A stretch of 64,000 nt of DNA from Eledone cirrhosa (taxonomy: Eukaryota), in contig OZ024741.1 in the NCBI GenBank assembly GCA_964016885.1, positions 394,754,001 to 394,818,000 of the forward strand, written 5' to 3'. The notes under the pieces were generated by a model that was not told where the DNA came from, did no database searches, and saw only the letters and a program-made list of their open reading frames with translations. The position numbers and the translations under genes were made by a program. Positions 1,880-43,541 of the stretch are shown in pieces. The first letter of the stretch is position 1, and each line of letters opens with the position of its first letter.

Positions 1880-3510
1880 TAAAAAGGTAGTGTCATTACC
1901 ACAGCAGAAGTCCAACGAGCTTTTGATTCCAGAGTCGGGCTAGATTGATACAAATTGAACCTTGAGCTGATCAATAGCGAAACACTTGGTTCCAAGAATT
2001 GCCTGATAAATGTAATACCCGTTTTCTGCAACTGGATATAGAAGACTACTACCCTTCTATCTCAGAGCCTCTACTGAAGGATGCACTTGCTTTTGCCAGG
2101 AACTTTACCACCATCACTGATGCTGAGCAGGATGTGATCCTCCACGCCTGCAAGATCTTTTTATACCACGAAGGGTCTTACTGGATTAATAAGAAGTCTG
2201 AGACTCCATTTAACGTCAGTATGGGAGCAAGTGACTCCGCAGAAGTTAGCAACCTGGTGGGCATGTATATCCTATACAACCTGAAGAATCATTTCACAGG
2301 CCTGACTGGAGGATTAATACCACGATAATGGCCTTTTTGCTTTGACAAGGTAAATCCCAGAACCACTGATGGGTTTTGGAAAAACTTATGCTCTTTCTTA
2401 CGTAATCTAGGTTTTAGAATAACCATAGAATCAAATATGACTAGGGCCAACTTTTTAGATGTCACTTTAGATTTAGATACTTCCCTCAATTACCCATACC
2501 ACAAACCTAATGAATCCCTTAGATACATAGATGTTAGTTTGAACCACCCCCAAAATATTACTGATAATTTAGTTAAAAGTGTCTCACTTAAAATTTCCAG
2601 TCTCTCAGCCAATGAAAACATGTTTAGTGCCTCTGCCCCTAATTACAATGAAGCCTTGCTCGCAGTGCCTTTAAAGAAAAGATTACCTATCTAGAAAACA
2701 CCCCAAGACCACTTAGGAGAAATAGGCATATGCAAATTAGTTGGTACAACCCTGCTTCAACAGAGAGTTATCTACACCAATAGCTAGGACTTTCTTCAAA
2801 TTTCTGAATATACACTTCCCAACACAACATAGGTACTACACTATTTTTAATAAGAATATGATAAGACTCTCCTATTCCACTACACCTAACTTAGCTAGGA
2901 ATATAGCTAACCTCAACAATGCTAAATTAAATAAGCCTACTACCTCCAAAACCCACCCATGGACGGGAACATTGTGCAACTGCCACAATAAGGAAGTGTG
3001 TCCACTCAAAAACAGATGCCTGATGAATGACATCGTATATAAATGCAATGTCATCTCAGGTATTGACAACAACAAAAAAATATATATCGGAATGACATCC
3101 AATAAATTTAAGACCCGGTGGTATACCCATAACCACTTGTTCAGAAGACCAGACAAATCTAACCAAACAACACTCACCTCCTATGTCTGGAACCTCAAGA
3201 GGAACTCCACTCTCTTCATGTTCAAATGGAAATTACTCCAGAAAGCGCGCTCATACATAGGTGGACACAAGTGTTGCGACCTTTGTATTTCGGAGAGCTA
3301 TGAAATACTATTTGCCAAGGGCCCGACACTGAACAAACTCTCTGAACACTGCCCGAACTGCATATACAAAAACTATGCAACATATAAATCCTGCAAACCA
3401 GTTCTTCCCCCATAACGATAGTTTAAAAAAACACCTCACTTGACATAATATCCCCTCCCTCACTATCCCACCCTACCCCCTATACCCTCTTTCGGTATGC
3501 CTCACAGTAT
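1880..3510 (+). mobile_element. Penelope-like retroelement, 5'-truncated and frameshifted (RT + GIY-YIG endonuclease)
   Basis: ORFs 1999-2328 (FLQLDIEDYYPSI, MGASDSAEV), 2437-2694 (NFLDVTLDL, YHKPN), 2741-3415 (CNC..CPL, IVYKC, YIGMT..FKTRW, CDLCISE). Confidence 0.92.
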
Positions 3511-4097: not shown

Positions 4098-4723
4098 GCA
4101 AAAAATCATCATGTGAACGGGTAAAAAAGCCAGTGGGACAAGATTATTCAAGCACCGGCCTGAGTTACTCCCCTTGCTCTGCGGCAATAACACATGTACT
4201 TAAGCAAAGAATGAACTCTAATGTAAATTTAACCTTAAAACCCCTCCTGGGTCGCGTACTGATCATTTTTTTGTTTTCTATGCCCTTGAGAAGAACGTTC
4301 TGGGCGAAACATACGTAGGTGTATTGTTATATAAACATGTTTTAATGGTATATACTCCTTTGTATTCATTTCTTTTATATATATGTATATGTATATATGT
4401 ATAGCTGGATTTGGGACAGGGCGTCGGCTGCTACGTTGTCTGATCCCTTGATATGCCGAATATCAGTTGAATATTGGGATACAAAATCCAGGTGTCGGAG
4501 TTCTCATGGTGAATGTCGATCAGGTTTGGTACGGAACGCATAAACTAGTGGTTTATGGTCCGTGTAGATCACGAAATCTGATCCTTCGAGCATGTGCCGA
4601 AAATGCTTAACCGAAAGATAAGTTTGCCAAGAGTTCGCGGCCAAAGGTACTGTATTTCGTTTCTGCCGGTTGCAACCGCTTAGAAAAGAAGGATAAGGGT
4701 TGCCACACGCCGTCGACATGTTG

Positions 4724-5959
4724 TTATAAAACGCCTCCAAACCCCGTGTCTGATGCGTCCACTAGCAGCGAAAGAGGAGCGCCAGACCTGAGGAAAACGA
4801 GCATGGAAGCGTTTGACAACATTTCCTTTAGGCGGTTAAAAGATGTTAATTCTTCCTCGTTTAGAGTGATCTCTTCGTTTTTGCGAGTCCGGTTACGAAG
4901 AAGGTCCGTGAGGAGTCTGGCTGCGTCGGAACAATGAGGGATAAAACGCCTATAAAAATTCACCAGACCGAGGAATTCACGCAGTTTCCGAAGTGATGTA
5001 GGTGCGGGAAAACTGCGGATAGCTTCTACTTTCTCGGGAAGTGGACGAATGCCGTCTTTATCGATGATGTGCCCGAGAAAGGACAGTGAAGGAACGCTGA
5101 GAAGGCACTTGCTGGGTTTGATGATGATACAGTACTCAGCCAAACGTTGGAAAAGGAGATCTAAGTGCTTCTCGTGTTCTTGCTCGGAAGTACTTGCTAC
5201 CAGCACGTCGTCAATATACGCGTATACAAAGGGTAGATCATGTAAGATGGTGTCAATAAACCGCTGAAAAGTTTGTGCAGCGTTGCGCAGACTGAACGGC
5301 ATTCGCAGAAATTCGAATAAACCGAACGGTGTTGTGATTACGGTCTTCGGAATATCTGCAGGCTCCATAGGTATCTGGTTATATGCACGCACCAAATCTA
5401 CCTTGGAAAAGATGCGTGCGCCTTGCAGAGAGGCAGAACAATCGTGCAGGTGAGGTACAGGGTAATTATCGGGCACTGTAGAATTGTTAAGTGCACGATA
5501 ATCCCCATATGGTCGCCAATCATTCTCGTTTTTTTGGGGAACAAGGTGTAGGGGTGCAGACCAGTTGCTGGAGGAAGGGCGAATGATTCCGAGGTCCAGC
5601 ATGTGTTGGAACTCCTGTTTGGCAATTCTCAATCGGTCTGGAGGCAGTCTCCTTGGTCGGGCAGCTGTGGGTGGTCCCTTTGTCTCGAAGTGGTGCGTGA
5701 CACTATGCTTAATGGGACCATCCTTAAATACCGGGCGAGTGATGTCTGGGTATTTCTGGAGATTGCCGTTGTACCGCGAAGGCTCTGACTGGCACATTAC
5801 AGGGCTCACTGTGGATTGCATCGTAAATATACCTCTCACAGTGAGGTTTGTGGTGGTGTCGATAAGCCTCCGGTTCTTCATATCCACCAGAAGGTTGAAG
5901 TGGTGGAGAAAATAGGCTCCTAGGATCGGGTCGGCAGGTCTGTCACGACGAACACCCAT
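4724..5959 (-). pseudogene. Gypsy pol fragment (end of protease, RT, start of RNase H); frameshifted at both ends
   Basis: ORF contains [41 protein letters not shown]. Confidence 0.9.
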
Positions 5960-6363
5960 TGAAAACGCCGCCTCAGGCCTAAATTGAGGGTCAGAGACTT
6001 CTCCCCGAAAGTCGGAATTGACGATTGATTCACTGCCTGCAGAAAGGATGGGGTTGGGTGTCTTTTTCCCGAGATCAGTGAAACCGGAATAACACTGACC
6101 TGGGCTCCTGTATCCACGAGGTATTGGATGCCTGTCGCCTGGTCGTTAATAAAAAATAGACGACTTTGTGAAAAGGCCTGGATCGACTGTTGCTGCGTCG
6201 CCGGTGTGTTTGAAAGGTCAAGTTCTCTACTTGATTTGAAAGGGCTTTAATTTGACCAGCCCGCTCTCTGATCATAGCCCGCAGCTCTGAAATCTCGGCC
6301 TCTGTCGTTTGTGACATGTCCATGTTGATATTTTCTTAGGTGTTGTCTGGTTGCGCGTTCGAC

Positions 6364-6380: not shown

Positions 6381-6916
6381 ATTGTGGCGACGTGGTTAGT
6401 CAGTCTAGTCACTACTTCTGATCAGATCCGAGAATAGTCCTTAGAAGGACTCTTATCGCATACGGTCTGATCAGATATGAAGATAGCCCTTAAAAGGACT
6501 GTTGTCGCATATAGCCCTTAAAAGAACTGTTGAAGATGGACAGACGAAAGCACAAGTTGAAAGGACGAAGCAAGGCGAGATGTAAATTCGATCAGCTATT
6601 TATTTTCACATGAATCGGCGATACGGGGTACAAGGCGTGTGAGTGACAAAGCGTGGCAGAGTAAAGGAACAACGATGCGCTAGCTGACTCTGCCAAAAGT
6701 CGACTGGCGAAGTGTTGGAAACCACTCTATTTATACAGGAACAATCGTGTTGTTTAGTCGATGTGTAGGCGTTTATTCTGGTAGGTTCTAAGGGTTCTTT
6801 TGTTTCACGTTGAAGTAGCTAGCGAACAGGTAGATGGCACTGTATATTTCACAGATGTTATTTCCGGTGGCTGTACATATGTATGTGAATGTATATGCAC
6901 ATATATATATATATAT

Positions 6917-7572
6917 TCGTAGAACACTGGAGGGATACTCCTGTGCTAAGAATATGAAGGTCCACATCACCATCAACCCTAAGAGCACAACCCTACCAGG
7001 ATGCTCTTGCCGAAGCCCTGAAGCTTGTCCCCTTCAACAACCGTGCAACACACCCGCTATAATTTACAAAGTTGTAGTCACTTCTAACCGACCAAATCAA
7101 CAAGAGATCAAATCCTATGTAGGTATGGCGGAGGGCCGATTTAAAGAACGCTTTCCGAATCATTTGTCAAAATTCAGACACCTGAAGAAACAATCATCCA
7201 CGAAGCTCACAAGCCACATATGGTCCCTCAAGATGCAGGCGTGGATTACTCCATTCAATTGAAAGTTATTACTAAGTAAGCCATATGGAAATGGGAATCT
7301 GTTTTGTGGGCTATCCACACGTTTCGAAACACCTATTATGTAATTTCAAAGCCCCAGATTGACTCTCCGACGTAATCACTGGACTTAATAACATGAATAA
7401 TCTATTATATTCTAAGTTTTCACAGTCGTCACCCGCCATTGCTCTAACATGAGTTGCCTTCCCTTTGGGAAGTAACTTCTGCACATGCGTATTCGTATAA
7501 TTGTTTTTCCTTCTCCGTATAATCTCATTTAAACCGAGCTGATGATCTGTCTAAGGTGAAACAATTGTTCTC
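6917..7572 (+). mobile_element. Penelope-like 3' fragment (GIY-YIG domain + pLTR)
   Basis: CSCRSPEACPL, IIYKV, YVGMAEGRFKERF in ORF 6834-7262; hammerhead motif at the 3' end. Confidence 0.85.
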
Positions 7573-9739: not shown

Positions 9740-12700
9740 TATTTTAATATGTCAACACACAAGAATATACCAATACCAACTCAGGATTCTTACTGCATGC
9801 TTTTGATTGGCAGTGTCAATTCACTCGTCAGAAGATTAAAATGGTGAAACACCAAAGGACAGAAGGATCAAGAGCCCACTAATTTTTATCAGTTTAAAAC
9901 ACATAAAAGTTCTCCACACAATACATTGATGGATAATTTCGAAAATGAACTAATTAACATAAGAAATCTAACTCTCATATGAACAATTTCTTGAAGTATC
10001 TCAACTCTAATATAAACAAACTTAAAAAACATAAAAACTTATTTGTATTAGCTGGTAAAATAGAAAATGTGTATAGTGTAGACTTAACCACATATAAAGA
10101 GCTGTATAAGAACTACAAAAAAAAACTTTATAGAATAAATAAAGACATAAATCTCATAGCTAACAGACTCAACCTTGAGAGACGTACTGAAACTTATACC
10201 CACAAAACACCCAGATTTACTCTTAAGGACCATAAGGTAGATTTTAATAATAACCCCTCAATTAGGCTAATTCGCCCTTCCACATTTGACATAGGTACGA
10301 TCAGCAAAGAAACCTACATTAAATTTATTGAAAAACACAACCAAAGTGTTAGACTGGTTTACCAACCTCCAATATAAGAATAAATTAAACTTCTTACAAT
10401 TTGACATAGACTTATACTACTCTTCTATATCTCCTAATCTTTTAAACAGGGCCTTAATTGTGATTTAACTAGAGCTGAAATCGATATAATACTTACAGCT
10501 AAAAAAACCATAATAGAAATCGATGGTAACTATTGGACCCCGCCAAAATAAAACGCCCTAATAATTTCGACATCACTATGGGTTCAAGTGACTCAGCACA
10601 AGTCACTGACTTAGTAGGTATTTTCTTACTAACTAAGCTTAACCCTTTAGCATTCGCATTAATTTTCAAATGTCATGCTTATCTGTTCAAATTATTTTGA
10701 GTTAATCATACTCAAGAGGGTTATCAATTTTATTTGTTTGTAATTTTCTTAATTTTCTATGTGCAGACTTGAAATTTTGTCAGTAGATGTTTAAATATCA
10801 ATAATTTACAATTATATAATTTAACCTGATTTTTTGGTTAAATTTGACTTTTATGGGCAGGTGAAATTAATTAATAGGGGCATTTGAAGTATCAACCAGG
10901 TGCAAATACTGGTTTAATTTTAAATACGTTGTTTTCGGCATAATACTTGATATATAAGGATCACTAAACCTTATATCAGTGCTCCAGTAATTCCAGTCTT
11001 GGAAATTGTTTTATACTGAACATAATATTTATGGTAAAAAATGCTTGCATTTCCACAGCCAAACAGATCGGGTTTTCCTCGATTTGAAATCTGTTGTTGG
11101 GCATATCGATTAATCTCTTCTGCCACAACTTCAAAGAAAGTTTGAGGTAAAAACAAAAAGAAATAATCCAGTGCTTTAGCATCGGGAGCTAATGTGTGTT
11201 GTGGACCAGTATTTTGAATAAAATTGGGAACATATATTGGTGTGGTATTTTTCAACCACGTTGCTGTAATATTTTCAATGGCTTCCTGGAGATTTCCTTC
11301 GTTTTCACTTTCAAAACAACAATCATCATTGGATGAAATTTCAGAAATGTAAACATCTGATTCATTTGACAATAAATCATTAATATCATCTTTTGTTTTT
11401 TGTTCATTTTGAATGTTGTTGTGTGTAAAACCTTCAAAGTTGGTATTGCTACTTTCACAAGCCATGTTGATACACAAAAAATCTGTTCTACTTTCGTTAA
11501 AAAAACACGTGTTGTTTTTTAAGTTGTTTCACTATATTATGTGTTAATTTTCACGGTAAGGGCCTAATCTCACAGTAATCTCGAATTGACGAGATTTTGA
11601 TGACAGTATTATTTATTTTTAGAATGATATTTTAGTGTTATCGGCCGGTTTCGGGCAGTTTGAACAAATGAAGGGGAAATAATTTCGGCCAGTTTGAGGC
11701 AGTTTGAACACTAAAGGGTTAAAAGCATTTTCCCCAAATTCAAAAGGGGATTATATCGGAATGACGCCCTTTTCCCCATCAACAGAAATAAGAGAAATCT
11801 TGAGCTAACCAAAAAATGTCTTCATAAATTTTTTGAATACAACTTAAAAATCACAATAGATACTAATAATAAAATAGTGAATTTTCTTGATGTTAAGTTA
11901 AACTTAGAATCTGGTTTATATAAACTGTTCCATAAACCAGGTGAACACTTATTCTACCTAAATAGACTCTCTAACCATCCCAAATCAATACTAAACTCTA
12001 TAGTCAATAACATTTCCACCCATATTTCTAAATCGTCCTCTAACCAGGATATATTCAACCAGAGTGCTCAATACTATAATGAGGCATTAAACAGATCAAG
12101 TTATAGTGACAAAATAACATATATTGAAAACGCCCATATGAACAGAACTCGTATATAATTTTACATAAAATGACGATTCAAAGGCATAACTTAAGCAGTA
12201 ATAGAATTAATAAACCTGATAATCACTATAAACCATGAGGAAATAGTAATGGAAATTATAAATGGGCGAACGAACACCCACCTACAGAATTTAAGAGCAA
12301 AAAAACACAAAATAACCACATAGAGGATCATATAAGTACATATAACAATACATGTAATAGAAATAAATGAAAAAAGGAAAATCTCAACATTAATAACAAT
12401 ATAATTAACACTGAAATCCTAAATAGACGTTCATGCAACCAGAAGTATAAATCAAGAACTAATATAAATATTAATGTCCTTAATGACACCATAATAAACC
12501 TAAATCAAACTATACACAAGTAAGGACTCCTAAACCAAATCGCAGAAAACCCACTACATGATTCAACCTTCCTTTTAACAAGAACTTAGCCACCAACATA
12601 CCTAGAGTATTTTTAAATATCTTAGAGAAAAACTTCCCACCAACGCACTGCCATCATTCAATCATTAATATAAATCTCATACTCTACTACCCCTAATATA

Positions 12701-23596: not shown

Positions 23597-23689
23597 CTGT
23601 GTAAAAGATGAGCTTCAAGTTCTGAACGGGGCAATACATCTTCACAGTAATCCACATTAGGACATACCACTAATAATTTATCCAGTAAT
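23597..23689 (-). CDS. LNX: Internal coding exon of an LNX1/LNX2-like E3 ubiquitin ligase (zinc finger immediately C-terminal to the RING)
   Basis: ttttgttgtag|A TTA CTG GAT...CAC AG|gttagt; 93 nt, phase 2-2; encodes LLDKLLVVCPNVDYCEDVLPRSELEAHLLH(R), matching the vertebrate LNX2 segment LLDKLLVLCP..C..V.QRCDLEAHL.NRC (recalled, not aligned). Confidence 0.88.
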
Positions 23690-25990: not shown

Positions 25991-26616
25991 AGAATATGTC
26001 AGCTAAGAATAATAATTGTTGCTGATCATTCAACAATACCACATTACCAACAAAAGGAGCCCTTTATAAGTCCTATTTAGCAGCTATGACTTCATATTTC
26101 AACACTTATCCACACCACATCTACGTTAGACATGTTTGTTTACATTGAATAAACGACTGGTAATGCATGTAATGTACCCTGGTCTCTATGTAATGTACCC
26201 TGCTTCACCCGTTCTTCCATTCTTTCCATGCCTGTCTCTTAGCCTTAATTACCTCATCTACCTTATTGTTCCACCATCAAGTCACTCTCCTCCTCCCTGT
26301 GGTCTTGCTCCAACCACAGATCTTATCTGTCACTTTTAGTAAATTATTTTTTAGGAACTCCCAGTGCGAAACCTACAGTCAGTAGGCACCTCTTAACCAA
26401 ATATACACCCCAACCCACTAGCCATACTCCACCCTCTCACTCTCACCAACACCACCCTTTCTCTGTAAAGTTATGTTGGTACCACAACATCCAGTCCAAA
26501 CTAATGAGGTTGTGTAGGTGTCACGACAAAAAAAAAACACACAGTCCACGCTGTAATGTGGCCGTGTAGCTAACAAGGTAAAAGGTTCCCAGTCCACACT
26601 GTAAATGTGGTTGGTG

Positions 26617-27520
26617 TTAGAATTTCTGGTCTATCGGCCAATGAAGATATCTTTAGTGCTTCTGCCCCTTACTACAACGATGCCCTCGTCCGCAGTAAAT
26701 TTAAAGAAAAGATTACTTATCTAGAAACCACCCCAAGACTACCTAGGAGAAATAGGTATAGGCAGATTAGTTGGTACAACCTCCCCTTCAATAGAGACTT
26801 TTCTACACCTATATCTAGGACTTTCTTCAAATTGCTGAATATACACTTCCCCACACAACATAGGTACCACACTATCTTTAATAAGAATATGATAAGACTC
26901 TCCTATTCCACTACACCTAACCTAGCTAGGAATATAGCCGATCTCAACACTACAAAATTAAATAAGCCTACTACTTCCGAAACCCATCCCCGGACGAGAG
27001 CTTTGTGCAACTGCCAAAATAAGGAAGCCTGCCCACTCGAAAACAAATGCCTGACAAATGACATCGTATATAAATGTGATGTCATCTCAGGCACTGGTGA
27101 CAAGAACAAAAAGACTTATATCGGAATGACTTCCAACAATTTTAAGACCCGGTGGTATGCCCATACCCACTCAGTCAGAAGACCGGACAAATCCAATCTG
27201 ACAACATTCGCCTCCTATGTCTGGAACCTCAAGAGGAACTCCACCCCTTTCACGCTCAAATGGAAATTACTCCAGAAAGCGCGCTCATGCATGGGAGGAC
27301 ACAAGTGTTGTGACCTTTGTATTTCAGAGAGCTATGAAATACTATTTGCCAAGGGCCCGACACTGAACACTGCCCGAATTGCATGCACAAAAGCTTTGCA
27401 ACTTAAAAAATATCTTAAGCCAGTGTTGAAGCCAGATGGATAAAAAAATTAAAACAAAACCCCACTCGACAAAATATCCCCTCCACCTCCATCCCACCCT
27501 ACCCCTACCCGCCTCACGGT
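26617..27520 (+). mobile_element. Penelope-like element, 5'-truncated; same family as 1880-3510
   Basis: ORF 26607-27443 closely similar to 2437-3415 (IRLSYSTTPNLARNIA, YIGMTSN.FKTRWY). Confidence 0.92.
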
Positions 27521-27789: not shown

Positions 27790-29570
27790 ACATATATCGT
27801 TTAATCATAATAATCAATTACACGCTTCTCCATGCAATCGAGATGTCCTTCATGCATTTGCTGTTGATTATGAGAACGGTCGCCTCAGATGAAAATCGAT
27901 ATATTTGATATGCCGCTGGCAAGAAAACACACATCCTAGTGCCTGTGTGGCCAGTATACATATGAGTTCCTTGAAGGGTTTGCCAACTGTCACATTTGTT
28001 AAAAAAGCTATCAACGAAAAAAGACGAAAAGAACAAAAAACTGTGTGCCGCCAAAACCCAGTAGACAGTAGAGCAATAAAAGGAGCTCTGAGGGAGAGTG
28101 GGGTATATATTTAGTTGACAACCACCTATAGACAACAACAACAATGACAATAACATCAAACCGCCGACCAAAGTTGCCCACACTGGTCGCAATAGTCGTG
28201 GTGATACCACTACTCTATTGACAACAACTAAAACAACAGCAAAAACACAGACCAACGTCATGTATACAGGTTGTAGTCGTCAGTGACGGTACCACCCTGT
28301 CGACAATAAACAGCGATAACGCCAAATCAATAAAAAGGAGTTTAGAGGTAGGTGGGTACACAGAGTTGGTGGTATCAATCACCATGATCATAAACAGTAA
28401 CAACAATGGCAACGGCAACAAGCCCCAACACCGCCGATCACCCACCCCGTTCGTCGCAGTAGTGGTGGTATCATCTATATCAGTATTAAGCCATTGGTAA
28501 CACCAATAACAACAACAAGACCAGTGATGACCCCACCACGGCGACGGCAGCAACAGGAAAAAAGCCACGCTTCCATGAAAAATAAACTAACCACAATAGT
28601 AGTCCGTTGAAACAAGGAAGTGAAAATGGTGTAGAAACATAGATGGGTATTTATATATATATAAACAAATACATTCCCAGTTAATACAGTCCTCTCTAAC
28701 ACTGTAAGGCACAAGACCAGCGATGATCATAGCATTCAGTCCCAACTACAGTGGCAACAATACTATCAAAAGGGCTGTTAGGCCATGGAAGAGAGTTACG
28801 GGAAGCGAAAGTAGGGACAGGAACAAGTAGATAAGAAATGAGAACACATATAGAGAACACAATAATAAAAGAACAGGACAAAAATACATAAAAAACAACA
28901 GTAGGTATATAAACAGAGGAATAGGGAACAAAGGACAAGAAACAAGTACACATAGAGACTACAGGTGTGCAAATAAGATATCCAAGGTTCGCCTGACGTT
29001 GGGGTTGCCGCGTGGCCATGCCCGGCTTCCACGGGCAAGTTTGCAATAGTCTTCAACTAGCACAACTACGTTGTTAGTCTGTACAGTTTGAGGAAGGTTC
29101 CAGAAGATCTGTGGAGGCACGGGCTGTAATTGTAGAAACCCCAGTAACTGCCCCCTGGAGGGTAGGTGCCTCGGCAGTGGCTTAGTATATGAATGTAGGG
29201 TGAATACCAACAACCATACCTTCACCTATATCAGAGCCACAGCTGATAAATTTAAGGAACGCTGGTACAATCATTGCCACACCTTTAAGAGGGCTTATAA
29301 TAAACACAGCACTTCTCTCGGAAGTAGTGTGGCGTCTCAAACATAACGTAGAATTCACCTTGTCGTGGTCCAAGGTAGCCTCAGCCCAACTCTACGGAGG
29401 GGGTGGACATGACTCATGCGATTTGTGTGTCACCGAGATTATGGAAATAATCAAGAGGGGAGCTCAAGTTATCAATAGAAGGATTAACCTCTTCAGCACC
29501 TGCCTCCACAGATCTTCTGGAACCTTCCTCAAACTGTACAGACTAACAACGTAGTTGTGCTAGTTGAAGA

Positions 29571-29571
<1 letters not shown>
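27790..29571 (+). mobile_element. Degraded Penelope-like element with low-complexity linker and inverted 3' duplication
   Basis: GCNCRNPSNCPLEGRCL..LVYEC (~29120) and CDLCVTE (29327-29554); 29048-29118 is the reverse complement of 29501-29571. Confidence 0.7.
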
Positions 29572-29631
<60 letters not shown>

Positions 29632-29633
<2 letters not shown>

Positions 29634-29909
29634 AGTGAAAAATTGAAGAATAAGATGGTCAGCTGTACAAAAAGGGTTTTATTTACAGTATTAACAATTG
29701 TTTCATTGATTAAGTTGTCTAAAGGCCGCTAATCACTCGAAGTTGCGTCACTCGACCTTAAATACGGTGTTTGCTTGATCAAATCATCGGAATACTAAAT
29801 AATTTACACGCAGTGTTTGAATGTATAGATACAATGGAGAGTCCTGTAAATACTGTAAATAAAACCCTTTTTGTACAGCTGACCATGTTATTCTTTAATT
29901 TTTCACTAT
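29632..29909 (-). mobile_element. Small element with 61-bp inverted repeats enclosing a hammerhead
   Basis: 29632-29692 is the imperfect reverse complement of 29849-29909. Confidence 0.75.
29687..29796 (-). ncRNA. Type-I hammerhead variant (CCGAUGA core) with long stem II
   Basis: Minus strand: agtatt-CCGATGA-tttgatcaag...cttaatcaat-GAAAC-aatt-GTT-aatact. Confidence 0.65.
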
Positions 29910-30370: not shown

Positions 30371-30940
30371 ACAATGCTCAGTGTGTTTGTAAACAATGAA
30401 TGTTAGGTGAATCCATACGTACACATATATATGTGTGCATGTATGTATATATATATACATACTACTGTACGTCTGTATACATATATGTATGTACGTGTAC
30501 ATACTTATATTTAAGTAACAGCCGTACTAAGAGTGGGAAATGAAATTTCGTTTCATTTTTTCCGTTTATCGTTTTCGGTGCACCCGGCCGATTAACCCAC
30601 TCGATATGTAAATTGGGCTACTCAGCCGTTAATATGCATAAGGAAAGTATATTCTTTCGGACGTTCAACAATCTGTCAGGAAGGTATACGTTGCTGACGA
30701 TAGCTAATAAGCTTGAAACTAGTACAGCGTTCCTTTGTCAGTGTTGAACAAACGAGCAACGATGGTTGCTGGACACTACGGCTTAATACGGGATGTTTGT
30801 TTACAAATACACCGAGCATTATAATAAATGTTCGGTGAATCCATACGTACATATATATATGTGTGCATGTATGTAAATATATATATATACATACTACTGT
30901 ACGTCTGTATACATATATGTATGTACGTATACATACTTAT
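30371..30940 (+). mobile_element. Retrozyme-like / PLE pLTR non-coding element with ~110-bp terminal direct repeat
   Basis: ~30398-30508 repeated at ~30827-30940; short inverted segment 30371-30395 versus ~30797-30821; internal hammerhead. Confidence 0.7.
30688..30730 (+). ncRNA. Minimal type-I hammerhead ribozyme
   Basis: acgttg-CTGACGA-t-agct-aata-agct-t-GAAAC-ta-GTA-cagcgt; 6-bp stem I, palindromic ACTAGT stem III. Confidence 0.85.
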
Positions 30941-31065
30941 AATGATGATATATATATATTTTTTTTTTTTTTAATATATATATATACATATACCTATATT
31001 ATATAGATATTTATATATATTAATTCAAAATATTAACAAAAATAAACATCAGTGTGATCAAGTAT

Positions 31066-31130
31066 ATTTTATTATACATATTTCAGAGGTACTGAGCTAT
31101 CTTCAACAGTACGTCCTCATCAGATAAAAT
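31066..31130 (-). ncRNA. Type-I hammerhead ribozyme (left arm)
   Basis: attttat-CTGATGA-ggacgtactg...cagtacctct-GAAAT-atgt-ATA-ataaaat. Confidence 0.75.
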
Positions 31131-32053
31131 AAGATGATGCATGACATACCCTGACTTAGTAGATGGTTAAGATTCAGTCATGGTAGTGAATAAGATATGA
31201 CAAAACTCAATATTTATATACCTTAAGATTGAGACATGAAAAAATTACATATAATACAGAGGGTGCGTGTGAGAAAGCTTAAAAATACATAATAGCAATT
31301 TACATAACTGTTAGAGATTCAAATAATTTAAATTATTGAAGAAAGAAGAAAGACAGAAAGAAACATGAGGAAAAAGATAGTTACTAGAAGTATAGAAAGC
31401 AAAAGAGAATTGATCAAGGATAGAGAGACAAGGAGGAATAGTTTTTATAGTGTAAAGCATAGGGAGGGAGATTTGTATTGTCATGGATAAATAGCGTATA
31501 ATTAGATGATGCAAAGATATATATATATAAATACTTAAATATACATTTGGGCATAGCTTTGTGAAAAAGTAATTTTGAATCTTTGAATTATCTAGAAATA
31601 ATCAATCAATCTAAGTATTAAATATATCTGGGTGTAATTATATGAGGGTTTAAATTTCGAGTCCTTAAGTTAATTAGAAATATACTAATAATTAATTATA
31701 TATATTATATATATCCAAACATATCCGGATGACCGTTAAATTTCGAATCATTTATGTTAGTTCAGAATAATGAATTAATCTAAAGATATGTTTCAGGCTA
31801 TAAAAATGTATAAGTATTTATATTAAAGTATACTATCATATTTAATTTATAAAATCATATTTAAAGTATTTGCAAACACGAGAAAGAAGAGACTTAATAT
31901 TTTCATCATCTCGAAGGTAATCCATATTAAATTATATTTTTTTTTCATGTCTCAATCTTAAGGTATATAAATATTGAGTTTTGTCATATCTTATTCACTA
32001 CCATGACTGAATCTTAACCATCTACTAAGTCAGGGTATGTCATGCATCATCTT

Positions 32054-32118
32054 ATTTTATCTGATGAGGACGTACTGTTGAAGATAGCTCAGTACCTCTG
32101 AAAAATGTATAATAAAAT
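32054..32118 (+). ncRNA. Type-I hammerhead ribozyme (right arm; one stem III substitution)
   Basis: attttat-CTGATGA-ggacgtactg...cagtacctct-GAAAA-atgt-ATA-ataaaat. Confidence 0.65.
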
Positions 32119-32286
32119 ATACTTGATCACACGAATGTCTATTTTTGTTAATATTTTGAATTAATATTAATAACTCCGGAAAACTATTTCTGTGGAGTGC
32201 TTCCAATCTATTGTAAAACTCATTCTTTGATTTATTCATTGAACCTTGTTTAACCTTTAAATATATTTATATATATGTATATACAG

Positions 32287-32437
32287 AGGCGGTGAATTGG
32301 CAGAGCTGTTAGGATGTCAGATAGAATGCTTTATGGTATTTGTTCCAGCTCTCTGAGTTCAAATCTTGCTGAGGTCAACTTTGCTTTTCATCCTTTCAAA
32401 GTTGATAAAAAAATACCAGTTTAGTACTGGGGTCAAT
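32287..32437 (+). mobile_element. tRNA-derived SINE
   Basis: ggcggtgaattggcagag head and gagttcaaatc B-box-like motif. Confidence 0.55.
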
Positions 32438-32582
32438 TCTTCCTCTATATCTTTCTCATTTCCATCTTTCTCTGGAAGAAATCTGCTGTCTCAGGCCTAG
32501 AGAAGGATGGGCTCTGCCAGACTTAAAATACCCAAGAAGTGCTGTATGTCAATACGGCGCCCCTAAGTCTCTGGAGTTACAT

Positions 32583-35881: not shown

Positions 35882-38680
35882 TCAAGGATCAATTTCCTCC
35901 TCGTCTCTCTGCATGTGGAAGTCTGCTGTCCAGGTTGGTGGTCTACGACATCGTTGCGATCTTCGTAGTATTGGGGCAGGGCTCTGAGTTTCCACCTCGT
36001 CTTGGGTTTCCTCTTCCTCGGAGTCCGTCGACACAGTGACTCTTCTTACATCCAGGACATGACGTGGTACCCCGTCCACGGACACATTGTTCTTTGAATT
36101 TACGGCCGTCACTGTTCCCCTTCCCCATTGAGATGTGCAACGTGCATCTGGGGGCTTAACCCAGACTTCTTCGTCCACCTGCACGAATGCACTCTCTTTC
36201 CCTACTGGCCGTTGTGGTGGCGTGCACAGGTGCCTCCACTCGTATTTGAATACTGCTCTGTGTGGCACCGATTCCTCGACCTGTCCAACCCGAGGAGACA
36301 TGTTGTACCAGAACACTGCCTCCATTGGTGAGACATGGCCCCGCTCCGCCATTGCCTTGATCGTCCGGTGGTGTCGCTCCACAATTCCATTCCCGCTCGG
36401 CCTGTGCGCCGCTCTGAAGAAACGGTTCACCTTCCATCCATCGAGCATCTCCCTCAGTGCCTCCGAGTCGAACGCTGCGCCGTTGTCCATCAGCAGTTCG
36501 TCCACAGGGCCCCGCTCCAAGAACACCTCTCTCAACGTCCGCACGATTTCCTCGGCCGTTTCAGTCCTCATCTCCCTCCATATCGCCATTCGACCTGGTC
36601 CACAGTCGACCATCGAGAGGTACGTTCCCTGCCGGTAGTGCGTCACATCCACCGCTAATCGCTTCCAGTCGCGATCTACCGGGAGGCTTCCCGTTTCGTG
36701 TACACCCGGGGCGGGATCAATGGACTGACATCGGACGCAGCCTCTAACCACTCCCTGAACACTGTGTCTGCTAACGTCCGGGTCGATTCTCCTGGCTAGG
36801 AACAGGCTCCTATCAACCCCTTCAGATCCGACTCAGTCAGCCGACACACAGCAGCTATCTCATCCTCTACCTCCTCCGGCGCTCCCATCCAGGCTTTCTT
36901 CACCCTAGTTAATATGTCCGCCCTGTTTTTCTCTGAGGGCACGAAAACTACGCTCAGCCTCAGGTCGAACTCGGTAGCCAACTCTCCTAAAGTTCCCAGG
37001 CGGCGCTTTATCAGCATCTCCGCCGCGCCTCTCGTTCGCACTGGTGAGCACTGATCTTACCCATCCGAGAACAGTAGCCGAGTCGGTGTGTATCTCGATG
37101 GTGTGCAGCCCCCACCACAGGGCGAGGTTCACCCCTCTCAACACTGCGTCCAGTTCGGCCACATTGATGTGATTGCAGTCGTCCTTCTTTCTAAGCCAGG
37201 CTGCATCCTCGACCTCAACAACTCCTATCTCCAACGTGACACCCAGCGCTATGCTGCTGGCATCGCACCACACGGTCCCGCTCTGTGATTTGGGAACATA
37301 CCAGCGTCCCCGCACTGGGTCGTCGGCCTTCACCCTTCCCACGATCTCCTGCAACATGGCCACCGTCCTCTCTCCCACTCTGTCACTCCAAGTCACTCCT
37401 CCCGCTTGTCTCTTGACATAGCTGCATGCCGTCCGGAGCCACCCAGCGATCGGGTAGTGACCCACCAGCTTTCCGCACACCGAGAAAAGCTCCCGCCTAC
37501 TCATACTTGGGCCCAGTTCCGGAACTTCGTTTCCCCTCTGGAATACCAAAACGCCTGTCCTGTCTCGCCACAGCCTAAGTCCCAGCGCGGCTCCTCCCTC
37601 CAATGCTTCTGACGGCTTCGCAGTCAGTCCGTACCCCTGTAAATGGCTCGTGACCTCCGCCGCCGACACCACCGACTCGTCCACTAAGATGTCGTCAATG
37701 TAGGAGTTAGTAACCCACTTTATCTTGTCAGCCTTCCCCAGAACGGTCTTGAGGACCGCCGCCATGATCTTCGGTGCGGAGCTCAGCCCGAAACCGAGCC
37801 TGGTCAGGCAATATGTCCGGCCCTTATACCTGACCAGCTGATACCGCCAGAGCTTCTCAGCTATATGCAACTGCAAGTAAGCCGACTTTAGGTCAACGAT
37901 CGCTGAACCCCCTGTCATGCGTCTCCACTCACGCAGAGTTTCTCCGCAGATATCCGTGACCTCGCCACCCGTGTGGCATGACACGTGTTCGTTCAGCTCC
38001 CGATAGTCCAGCACCGGCCTCACCTTGCTCTTCGTGGGTTGCACCACCGCCATTAACGGAAATACTCCGCACTTCAGCTCCTCCTTCCAGGGAAGCAGTA
38101 TGCCCTCTTCGATCCATCTCTCTACTTCTCGCTCGAACTTACTCCTAACGTTTCCCTTCAATGTGTGTTGATAGCAGCCCACTTTGGTCTTCAGTGTTGG
38201 TGGTTCTCCCTTCCAGTACCACTCAACAACCCATCGCTGCCCATCAAACACGGCCTTGAAGCCTTTGTCCTGCACAGTGTAAGCGGGGTATTCCTCCTCG
38301 TGGGCCTTCTGGTTCTCATGACGTGCACTCACTGCGCATGCCGATGCAGCGGCGCCAAACGACACACCGAGGTTGTCCACCGTGACGCCTCCTAAACGGC
38401 CAATCGCGTCCATGCCCATAACCATGCCGATCCCATCCACCACACTGTCTACTACGATGGCCGAAAGCTTTAACCTCCTTCCCCGTACCGCTATTTCCAC
38501 CTCGCTGCGACCTCAGCATCCGATTTTCCTGCCGTCGACTGCCCTTACACTGCTCTTCCTTCCCCACCTCTGCGCCACCTCTGCGCCACCCCCACGGTCA
38601 CCAGTGTCGTCGTACAGCCCGTGTCCACGAGGGCTCGCTGTGGCTTCCCCCTCACGAAGACTTCCACCATGGGCAGCGCC
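35882..38680 (-). pseudogene. Gypsy pol (protease-RT-RNase H-integrase), broken by a few frameshifts
   Basis: VRPVLDYRELN, VDLKSAYLQ, YIDD, WCDASS, HINVAEL, TDSATV (36905-38500); CVRC, AVDVTH, MDNG, GNGIVER (35882-36751). Confidence 0.92.
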
Positions 38681-38681
38681 G

Positions 38682-39441
38682 CTACTCGTAAGGGGCAACT
38701 ACCGGCGCAGTAGTTCCCCTTGGATCGTTTCCCTGGTCGCAGTTAGTAGCGATGTGGCCTGGTCGCTTACACCGGTAGCAAATTATCTCCGGCCTCAACT
38801 CTCTACAGTCTCTAGCCATATGCGGGCCCTGGCAACGAAAACAGCGCCCTCTAAACGTTCGCGTGCGACCGCGTGCCAAGGTTGCCTCCCTTTCACTGTT
38901 TCGTTGCCAGGTGTCCTGAGCCTCCGTAGTTGCTATCGCCGCAACACTCTTTGGCATCTTCTGCTATGATCCGGGCTTGTTCCACCAGTGAACGCATTTC
39001 CATCTCTTTATAACCCGGGACTTGCTGCAGCCTCACCGCTATGTCGTCTGGAAATCCATTAATGAACGCCAACTGCACCGTGCGTTCGCATTCCGCCTGA
39101 TAACCAGCCAACATGGCCAACCGCCTTATTTCTGCGGCGAAAATGTCGACGCGTTCACCATTCCACCTGATTCTCGCCAGCTTAGCAAAAGCTGCCAACG
39201 GTCCCTCGGCGAATGCATCTATCAGACGCCGCTCAATCTTCTGCGCATCTCTTTGGCTGTGCTCATCCAACTCAAGGAAGAGTACCAGCGCGTCTCCCTT
39301 GAGGTAGAGTGCCATTAGGCCAGCCACATCCTCTATCTTCTGCAAGCTTGCGACCAGCCGAACTTTCAGCAGCCAAGCGATTACATCACCCTCCCCGGTA
39401 AATGCCCTGATGGCTTCGCTCGTCCGTAGTCTTGTCGCCAT
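38682..39441 (-). pseudogene. Gypsy gag with two CCHC zinc knuckles, one frameshift
   Basis: ORF 38893-39441, continued by CFRCQGPHMARDC and CYRCKRPGHIATNC in 38682-38957. Confidence 0.88.
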
Positions 39442-39560
39442 CCTCTGATTTGTCTAGCGGTAAGTGACACAAAAAAAAAAAAAACAACAACAGACTCCTC
39501 TCTGTTTTTCCAGTAGCTTTTTCTTCTTTTTTCTTTGTTCCGTCAGATCTGTTTCCAGTT

Positions 39561-42290: not shown

Positions 42291-43541
42291 CAGGGTGTGG
42301 ACGATATTTGTTCGCAATTTTCAACTGCTAATTTTATGCAATTTTTTTTACTTCCGTTGTTACTCTTGCCTCCATAAAAACAGTGACTATATTTCCATTA
42401 TTTATTTTCAGAATAATTGATTATGAATAATTTTGAACCTCCAAATTGGAATCCACGCCGGGAGGACAAATAAGGAAATTTCAGACTTTCTCAGCATCAG
42501 CAGGAGAATGGTGAAAAAGGTCAGAAAGGAATTGGAAGATTCAGGATTTGACTACGAAGCAACATCAGAGAGGAAAACACATGATCGACGATCTTACGCC
42601 TTCAGAACGCCCGAGTTCATCGCTGAAGTTCAGGATATCATCAACAATGAACCTAGCAAGTCGATGCGTGCCATTGCAAGGGAGAAAGGCGTGGATGAAA
42701 AGCTCATTAGGCTGGTGGTACATGAAGACATTCGCTACATTTCATACAAGATGAGGAAAGGACAATTTCTGTTAAAGGCGATGCAAGAAAAAGCAACTGA
42801 AGCACGCAAAGAAGCTGATCAACAAGTTGAAACACCCACTGGAGCCAGACATGCTGTGGTTTTTCTCCGACGAGAAAAACTTCTGCCAAGACCAGAAGAT
42901 CAAATCCCAGAACAGCAGGTGGCTCGCTGTCTCATCCAAAGACGTGCCCAGAGTGATGCAGACAAAGTTTCCAGCGACAACATTGGTCTTAGGTGTCGTC
43001 AGCAGTCACTTCTTCCCTGAGGGCCTCAAGCTGAACACCGATGGCTACATCCGCGTTCTGAGCGAGATAGTAAAGCCCTGGATCGACCAGGTAGCTGCAG
43101 GTAGGCCATACATGTGGCAGCAAGACTCAGCGCCCTGCCATACCAGCCGAAAGACCCAAGCCTGGCTGTCAGAGAACTTCGTCGACCACACTTCACCTGG
43201 CATCTGGCCTCCCAGCTCGCCTGACTGCAACCCCCTCGACTTCTTTGTGTGGGGCGCAGTGGAGCGAGACACCAACAGATCTAGCTGCAATACGAAAGAC
43301 GATCTGAAGGCCAGGATCACAAGTGCCTTTAGTCGGGGGACAGTGACGAAGGCCTGTAGCTGGTTCCGAGGCCGCCTTGAGGCCGTCATCAAAGCCAATG
43401 GCGGGTTTATCGAGTGAGATCGAAAGAACAAGTCATGAAGACAAACTGACCCAAGTTTGATAAATATATCTTAAAAAATAAAACTACTGTGCTATTTTTT
43501 CCTAGACAGTAATCTTGCAAACAAATATCGTCCGCACCCTG
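42291..43541 (+). mobile_element. maT (DD37D) Tc1/mariner transposon, near full length
   Basis: 27-bp TIRs cagggtg(t/c)ggacgatatttgtt(c/t)gcaa, TA flanks; FSDEKNF, WQQDSAPCH, WPPSSPDCNPLD with 37 residues between the last two D; frameshift near 42790. Confidence 0.95.

What the first reader, a model, noticed from the sequence alone, without database searches (positions are those of the whole stretch)
31021..32163. 1.14-kb element with a hammerhead in each inverted arm, one per strand
Seen: ~220-bp near-perfect inverted arms, each with a hammerhead fold (7-bp stem I, long stem II, AUA site), pointing outward. A transcript from either strand contains one ribozyme plus its antisense. The minus-strand copy has the better stem III and is sense to the LNX pre-mRNA. 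Inference: it could cleave the intron or be silenced as a long dsRNA hairpin; probably tail-out inverted PLE pLTRs.
Basis: partly seen in the sequence, partly recalled or inferred. Interest (0 to 1): 0.7.

Follow-up and report, generated by a model that had tools for sequence, protein, structure and literature searches.

The report
Penelope transposon copy with twin hammerheads
This is an ordinary broken, folded-back copy of a very common jumping gene inside a host intron; each end carries the element's usual self-cutting RNA motif, and the two ends are predicted to pair with each other and keep it from folding.

Summary
Observation confirmed; interpretation mostly right, but this is routine. 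The arms are real (241 nt, 96%). Each holds a type I hammerhead motif (predicted cuts 31073|31072 and 32111|32112). The element lies in a 78-kb LNX intron. It is a 5'-truncated Penelope-like retroelement, probably Hydra clade: 31017-31938 is its 3' end on the minus strand, and longer genomic copies continue into an RT + GIY-YIG frame. The motif has 56,178 pattern matches in this genome; 40 of the first 100 lie in such tail-out pairs. In 15 of 15 pairs of this family and 7 of 7 of sister families, exactly one end has the tail. Stem II covaries and helix III is a palindrome, so the ribozyme likely needs a dimer; a T>A change weakens the plus copy. In LNX pre-mRNA the antisense arm is made first and is predicted to trap the sense ribozyme (about 97 kcal/mol), so intron cleavage is unlikely. 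The layout is published, and this scan noted it before on other DNA of this genome. One detail not found in print: a near-invariant C.Y mismatch in helix II (95% of matches).

The parts
31017..31938 (-). 3' end (non-coding 3' UTR and pLTR end, no tail) of a 5'-truncated Penelope-like retroelement
   Evidence: Matches other genomic places at 88-94% over about 930 bp. Longer copies continue into RT + GIY-YIG frames. The end falls at the family's tail-less terminus.
31065..31131 (-). Type I hammerhead motif, sense to LNX. Stem I 31131-31124/31072-31065, CUGAUGA 31123-31117, stem II 31116-31085, helix III palindrome 31081-31074, predicted cut 31073|31072
   Evidence: Sequence
31937..31945 (.). Inversion junction inside a run of 9 T: 2 from the body, 6 from the inverted arm, 1 unassigned
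   Evidence: Comparison with copy L004 and with the left arm
31940..32167 (+). Second, inverted 5'-truncated 3' end of the same element (right arm)
   Evidence: 224 of 228 identical to the left arm
32053..32119 (+). Hammerhead motif of the right arm, predicted cut 32111|32112; private T>A at 32104 breaks a helix III pair and the palindrome
32168..32266 (+). 99-bp tail, present on this end only; equals the sequence upstream of the ORF in copy L031; begins with a predicted hairpin
30948..31016 (.). TA-rich microsatellite target, left flank
   Evidence: Sequence; nearly all family ends abut (TA)n
32267..32284 (.). TA-rich microsatellite target, right flank
   Evidence: Sequence
23597..23689 (-). 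Host context: 93-bp internal LNX exon; the element lies in the 78.3-kb intron upstream of it
   Evidence: AG/GT ends, LNX2 match, in-frame join to the upstream RING exon

Best explanation
This is a 5'-truncated, folded-back copy of an abundant Penelope-like retrotransposon inside an LNX intron; it was likely made when both strands of a cut (TA)n target primed copying of the element's RNA from two fixed start points, and its hammerheads are predicted to be trapped by arm-to-arm pairing rather than to cut the host RNA. Shown by calls: family membership, the RT + GIY-YIG frame in longer copies, two discrete 3' termini 99 bp apart, (TA)n flanks, one tailed and one tail-less end per pair, covarying hammerhead stems, and the LNX intron. 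Inferred: (1) the element's protein cut both strands; one cDNA started at the upstream site (922 nt, left) and the other at the downstream site (about 327 nt with tail, right). Both stopped early and were joined head to head in a T run. (2) The hammerhead is part of every 3' end of this family and likely works in the element's own tandem RNA as a dimer through the palindromic helix III, perhaps with protein help. (3) In LNX pre-mRNA the antisense arm is made about 680 nt before the sense ribozyme, so a duplex of about 230 bp would form. That duplex is a plausible A-to-I editing substrate but probably of no consequence to the host.
For: Family matches cover query 1-928 and do not continue into the right arm. 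L048 aligns continuously over 3.7-3.9 kb to L034 and L049 and holds RT and GIY-YIG motifs; atlas neighbours at 0.93-0.95 carry RVT_1 / GIY-YIG / HTH_animal. Two termini, each followed by (TA)n. Of 33 places, 15 have a tail-out partner, and 15 of 15 are tail + no-tail; sister families 7 of 7 (read by eye). Among the first 100 motif hits, neighbours within 4.5 kb are 20 tail-out, 3 tail-in, 8 same-strand. On 28 sequences, 90.4% of cells pair, 8 of 10 stem II pairs change on both sides, and slid controls give 32-59%. Folding. PMC11167929 shows a PLE protein cutting and extending both strands, two adjacent internal RT starts that define the tail, and a protein-assisted hammerhead not needed for insertion in vitro. 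PMC4209133 shows no cleavage by a single minimal metazoan PLE hammerhead.
Against: Pfam found 0 families on 4 of 4 ORF pieces of this family and PDB gave no relevant hit. Rfam does not recognise the motif. The tail is 99 bp against 30-40 bp in PMC8557442. 18 of 33 places show no inverted partner (8 of them had only about 1.5 kb of upstream context). Two-strand priming is inferred from layout; template switching or later recombination could give similar inversions. Folding energies are equilibrium predictions without tertiary contacts or proteins.
Confidence: 0.9

Rival explanations
1. The sense hammerhead cuts LNX pre-mRNA co-transcriptionally, or has been co-opted to regulate LNX.
For: The minus copy is sense to LNX and keeps an intact core and the family's helix III.
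Against: The antisense arm is transcribed first. 66 of 67 ribozyme bases pair with it in the best fold, and stem I/II pair probabilities round to 0; the enforced fold costs 96.6-99.7 kcal/mol. My descriptor found one sense copy in the whole intron, so no dimer partner in cis. The copy carries 21 private changes in 922 nt and is one of 4,488 clade matches.
Confidence: 0.04
2. A MITE or foldback DNA transposon whose terminal inverted repeats contain a hammerhead.
For: Long terminal inverted arms, a non-coding AT-rich interior and TA flanks.
Against: None of the other scored matches spans the whole unit; they follow only 31011-31938 and run on into a retroelement ORF. Spans between ends vary from 1.2 to 6.2 kb and arm lengths vary. 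The ends are asymmetric because of the tail.
Confidence: 0.02
3. The inversion arose after insertion (recombination, hairpin repair or template switch) or is an assembly artefact, rather than from priming on both strands.
For: The junction lies in a T run without clear microhomology. No listed contig piece bridges the junction (short contigs, so uninformative).
Against: The arms differ at 4 positions, and the right arm has 99 bp that the left lacks, so it was not copied from the left arm. The tail + no-tail rule holds in 22 of 22 pairs.
Confidence: 0.04

Closest known systems
Hydra clade of C-terminal-endonuclease Penelope-like elements, incl. Hydra-1_Obim (PMC8557442; section 11, passages and supplement rows read)
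   Same: RT followed by C-terminal GIY-YIG; DKT motif; CxCx5C linker; CxxC and CxH around the last E and N; (TA)n targets; 3' hammerhead; an inverted 5'-truncated copy with a tail at one end only (Fig. 2 legend).
   Different: A different family from Hydra-1_Obim (different hammerhead sequence, compared by eye). Unit at least 4.4 kb with a 3' UTR of about 2.2 kb, against 'generally <3 kb'. Tail 99 bp against 30-40. RWC in place of RWK in the one copy read. No tree was built.
Metazoan PLE type I hammerheads with minimal or palindromic helix III (PMC4209133; parts 1-2 of 4 read)
   Same: Long helix II, palindromic helix III suited to a dimer, location in pLTRs, dual motifs on opposite strands about 100-700 bp apart.
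   Different: Helix II closes with A-U or G.U (25 of 28) rather than G10.1-C11.1, with no bulged base needed at its 5' end. Helix I has 8 bp. A C.Y mismatch sits at helix II position 4 in 53,353 of 56,178 matches.
Poseidon element PAc of Anolis, in vitro mechanism (PMC11167929; parts 1-2 of 4 read)
   Same: Two fixed ends that define a tail; AT-rich targets; a predicted hairpin at the start sites; both-strand activity would explain the fold-back.
   Different: In PAc the hammerhead overlaps the ORF start and RT starts inside the ORF. Here both ends lie upstream of the ATG (about 55 nt for the tail end in L031). Two-ended joining was not shown there.
Animal non-LTR retrozymes (bioRxiv 10.64898/2026.07.22.740005, part 1 of 5 read; PMC7229834, listing only)
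   Same: Type I hammerhead, non-coding at this locus, linked to PLEs.
   Different: Not a tandem repeat of a small unit; it is the truncated end of a protein-coding element.

Membership tests
Penelope-like elements (C-terminal EN+) | Single frame with RT followed by GIY-YIG endonuclease in longer copies | tested here: met
   L048 477-aa open stretch runs from RT motifs to YIG; L031, L039, L046, L049 hold pieces. Atlas. BLASTP E 6e-30 to a window ORF with a weak GIY-YIG Pfam hit. Pfam direct: 0 of 4.
Penelope-like elements (C-terminal EN+) | 5' truncation, inverted truncated copy, tail at one end | tested here: met
   15 of 33 places paired, 15 of 15 with one tail
Penelope-like elements (C-terminal EN+) | Hammerhead near the 3' end / in the pLTR | tested here: met
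Hydra clade | DKG modified to DKT | tested here: met
   Present in L031, L039, L043; feature
Hydra clade | CxCx5C linker; CxxC and CxH beside the conserved E and N; CCHH absent | tested here: met
   Read by eye in L039, L046 (all three) and L043, L048, L049 (linker); one Cys in the GIY-YIG core
Hydra clade | N-terminal RWK motif | tested here: inconclusive
   Only L031 covers it, and it reads RWC
Hydra clade | Insertion into (TA)n | tested here: met
Hydra clade | Generally short (<3 kb); descriptive in the paper rather than diagnostic | tested here: not met
   L031 unit spans about 4.4 kb. Filed as Hydra-like, not formally as Hydra.
Hydra clade | Groups with Hydra in an RT phylogeny | not tested
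   No reference Hydra proteins were held as usable sequences
Type I hammerhead ribozyme | Core CUGANGA, GAAA, NUH joined by three helices with helix I open | tested here: met
Type I hammerhead ribozyme | Covariation of helices | tested here: met
   Helix II: 8 of 10 pairs change on both sides; helix III palindrome 95.5% paired. Helix I and the outer helix III letters were imposed by my search pattern and are not independent.
Type I hammerhead ribozyme | G10.1-C11.1 closing pair (highly conserved, not invariant) | tested here: not met
   G.U here; A-U 17, G.U 8, G-C 1, unpaired 2 of 28
Rfam hammerhead families | Covariance-model match | tested here: not met
   No hammerhead family at E<=10
Type I hammerhead ribozyme | Self-cleavage | not testable with these tools
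   Needs an in vitro assay or RNA end mapping
MITE / foldback DNA transposon | Uniform copies with both terminal inverted repeats | tested here: not met
Non-LTR retrozyme | Tandem small units, each with a hammerhead, no coding parent | tested here: not met

The most novel reading that the evidence does not exclude
These elements carry an undescribed hammerhead subtype: a long helix II with a near-invariant unpaired C opposite a pyrimidine at position 4, which docks on helix I or binds the element's protein in place of the usual loop-loop contact. It is present in over 50,000 copies. The strict one-tail-per-pair rule is the genomic footprint of a dimeric enzyme that primes the two target strands at two fixed, different sites.
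Probability: 0.3. Interest if true: 0.45.

Novelty: new member of a known kind. Interest (0 to 1): 0.18.

Why it matters
The locus itself matters little: it is one of thousands of like insertions. The family-level counts have some use. The tail + no-tail rule (22 of 22 pairs) is a genome-side prediction for the open question of how Penelope-like elements make inverted insertions. The conserved helix II mismatch is a concrete site to test in these slow or protein-assisted hammerheads. By extrapolation from 100 hits, such pairs number in the thousands and would supply many long dsRNA hairpins in introns for A-to-I editing.

Tried and rejected
Rfam: no hammerhead hit, only microsatellite-driven miRNA matches. 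Single-strand folding z-scores were not significant. Pfam on family ORF pieces gave 0 of 4; PDB gave 3 irrelevant hits. The LNX exon was missed by motif scans, by Pfam on 88 hand-picked stop-free frames (87 minus, 1 plus; 412 candidates were listed, so most were not scanned) and by a genome PDZ search; it was found by reading frames. RNA: no RNA holder listed, so expression, cleavage and editing were not examined. DNA contigs X1-X3 (one sample) laid on 31300-32560 were short, and no listed piece bridged the junction; uninformative. Fossil A-to-I editing: 2 A>G and 4 T>C among 21 private changes against 29 copies, no excess. A Neptune assignment was dropped because the linker is CxCx5C and DKT is present. 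The tail hairpin: the letters recur in the sister families, but it was in the best fold of only some of the 20 tails folded, so it is weak support. Literature: 'octopus, Penelope, hammerhead' listed 4 papers, one relevant; 'Penelope, twin priming, inverted, tail' listed 1 review, not read; 'hammerhead, stem II, C-C mismatch, tertiary' gave 0. These exact-word searches do not prove absence, and the supplementary alignments of PMC4209133, which I did not open, may show the mismatch. Earlier-findings look-ups near this window, for 'LNX' and by sequence were empty.

Full report
Observation. The repeat finder gives arms at 31011-31251 and 31933-32173, 241 nt, 96% complementary. Over the shared core they differ at 4 of 228 positions: 32104, 32133, 32134 and 32139. 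Each arm reads, outward, 8-bp stem I, CUGAUGA, a 32-nt stem II hairpin, GAAA, six bases, UA, stem I. Predicted cuts are 31073|31072 on minus and 32111|32112 on plus. I therefore tested it on relatives.

The hammerhead is real as a conserved structure. A pattern fixing the core, part of stem I and the outer helix III letters, and leaving stem II free, has 56,178 matches in the genome and 0 for the reversed control. I aligned 28 sequences: the two window copies plus 26 relatives. 25 came from the 39 distinct cores, with 14 left out (13 near-identical copies of this family and one near-duplicate of a sister family); one shorter motif was added. 90.4% of cells pair; 8 of 10 stem II pairs change on both sides; slid controls reach 32-59%. 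The shuffle controls are mixed: 0 of 500 for percent paired, cells changed and covariation score, but 60 of 500 for pairs changed and 483 of 500 for pair types. The sequences fall into a handful of related families, so cells overcount events. Helix III is an 8-nt self-complementary stretch whose free inner pairs hold in 25 and 27 of 28. As a monomer it costs 3.5 kcal/mol; the self-duplex is -2.2 for the minus copy and +0.6 for the plus copy. This fits the dimer-dependent PLE hammerheads of PMC4209133 (parts 1-2 of 4 read), where a single minimal motif did not cleave. Position 4 of stem II is unpaired in 28 of 28, and C opposite a pyrimidine holds in 53,353 of 56,178 matches.

What the element is. 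A genome search gave 2,122 candidates, 40 of them scored. The long matches cover query 1 to about 930 at 88-94%, and none but the window runs on into the right arm. Twenty 10-kb stretches show variable 5' truncation. The longest copies carry RT and GIY-YIG frames upstream, on the hammerhead strand. Pfam was blank on 4 of 4 pieces, but atlas neighbours carry RVT_1 and GIY-YIG and BLASTP links the C-terminus to a window ORF with a weak GIY-YIG hit. DKT, the CxCx5C linker, CxxC/CxH and (TA)n targets match the Hydra clade (PMC8557442 section 11; supplement rows compared by eye). Length and one motif do not fit cleanly and no tree was made, so I call it Hydra-like. The clade lead came from earlier scan notes. 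The host is probably an octopus; that is inference from repeat style (recalled) and likeness to Hydra-1_Obim, and no call names it. 4,488 places match this clade's hammerhead pattern.

Anatomy. The family has two discrete 3' ends, at window-equivalents 32167 and about 32266, each followed by (TA)n. The 99 bp between them is the tail; in L031 the same sequence lies about 55 nt upstream of the ORF start. The window copy is a 922-bp tail-less 3' end on minus, a junction in a run of 9 T, and a 3' end of about 327 bp with tail on plus. After merging 17 duplicate loci, 33 places remained. 15 show a tail-out partner, all 15 with exactly one tail; 18 show none. These were the best-scoring long copies, not a random sample. 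In sister families, 7 of 7 pairs among loci L051-L080 show the same (by eye). Among the first 100 motif hits, neighbours within 4.5 kb were 20 tail-out, 3 tail-in and 8 same-strand. PMC8557442 describes this layout with a tail at one end, and PMC4209133 mentions dual motifs on opposite strands.

Mechanism. PMC11167929 (parts 1-2 of 4 read) reports that a PLE protein cuts and extends both strands of AT-rich DNA and starts at two adjacent internal sites that bound the tail. It is predicted to be a dimer, and it assists a hammerhead that is not needed for insertion in vitro. I infer that each cut strand primed one cDNA, one from each site, and that the two truncated products were joined. The right arm cannot be a later copy of the left, since it holds the tail. 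The joining step is not shown anywhere that I read.

Host context. A 93-bp minus-strand exon at 23597-23689 matches LNX2. The RING exon ends at window-equivalent 101,951, the two join in frame, and PDZ-like exons follow downstream. The intron is about 78.3 kb. Polymerase meets the antisense of the right arm first. In the best fold 66 of 67 ribozyme bases pair with it, and enforcing the hammerhead costs 96.6 kcal/mol even for a transcript ending just after it. My descriptor found three motifs in the intron, only one of them sense; degenerate ones could be missed. Cleavage of LNX pre-mRNA is therefore unlikely, and a long duplex is likely if the intron is transcribed. No RNA data were available.

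Verdict. A real feature, correctly described, and ordinary: a new member of a known kind, already met several times by this scan in this genome. The helix II mismatch was not found in my one direct search, and the strict tail rule was not found. Both are family-level leads rather than properties of this locus.

Noticed in passing
window 30395-30941, + strand: A separate retrozyme-like repeat: about 430-bp period (30395-30509 repeated at 30823-30941, 93%) with a small hammerhead motif at 30694 and a palindromic helix III. Relatives lie within the loci of this PLE family at L008, L027, L030/L042 and L031, perhaps from shared (TA)n targeting.
   Followed up: partly
window 29048-29572 and 29632-29909: Two small fold-back pieces either side of a (TA)n run: 79-nt arms around a GIY-YIG-like fragment, and 65-nt arms 148 nt apart. 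Probably further inverted PLE insertions.
   Followed up: no
window 1978-3415, 6834-7262, 9958-12158, 26574-27443: Several other PLE fragments of Hydra type by eye; two have weak GIY-YIG Pfam hits.
   Followed up: partly
window 35882-39453 and 4507-6335, - strand: Two interrupted Gypsy-like LTR retrotransposon copies (gag, RT, integrase-like frames), named by eye.
   Followed up: no
window 42427-43417, + strand: Tc1/mariner-like transposase in two frames, named by eye.
   Followed up: no
L031 (G000:C28:112577254-112587253): This copy begins almost exactly where the tail-less 3' end stops, so it is close to one unit length without a pLTR. It resembles the 'no pLTR' note for Hydra-1_Obim.
   Followed up: partly
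L004:500-1600 and equivalent copies: The 3' UTR holds an old internal duplication of about 550 bp at about 68% identity.
   Followed up: no
LNX gene, G000:C2 about 394.69-394.86 Mb, - strand: RING, zinc-finger and several PDZ-like exons spread over about 160 kb, with a 78-kb intron after the RING exon.
   Followed up: partly
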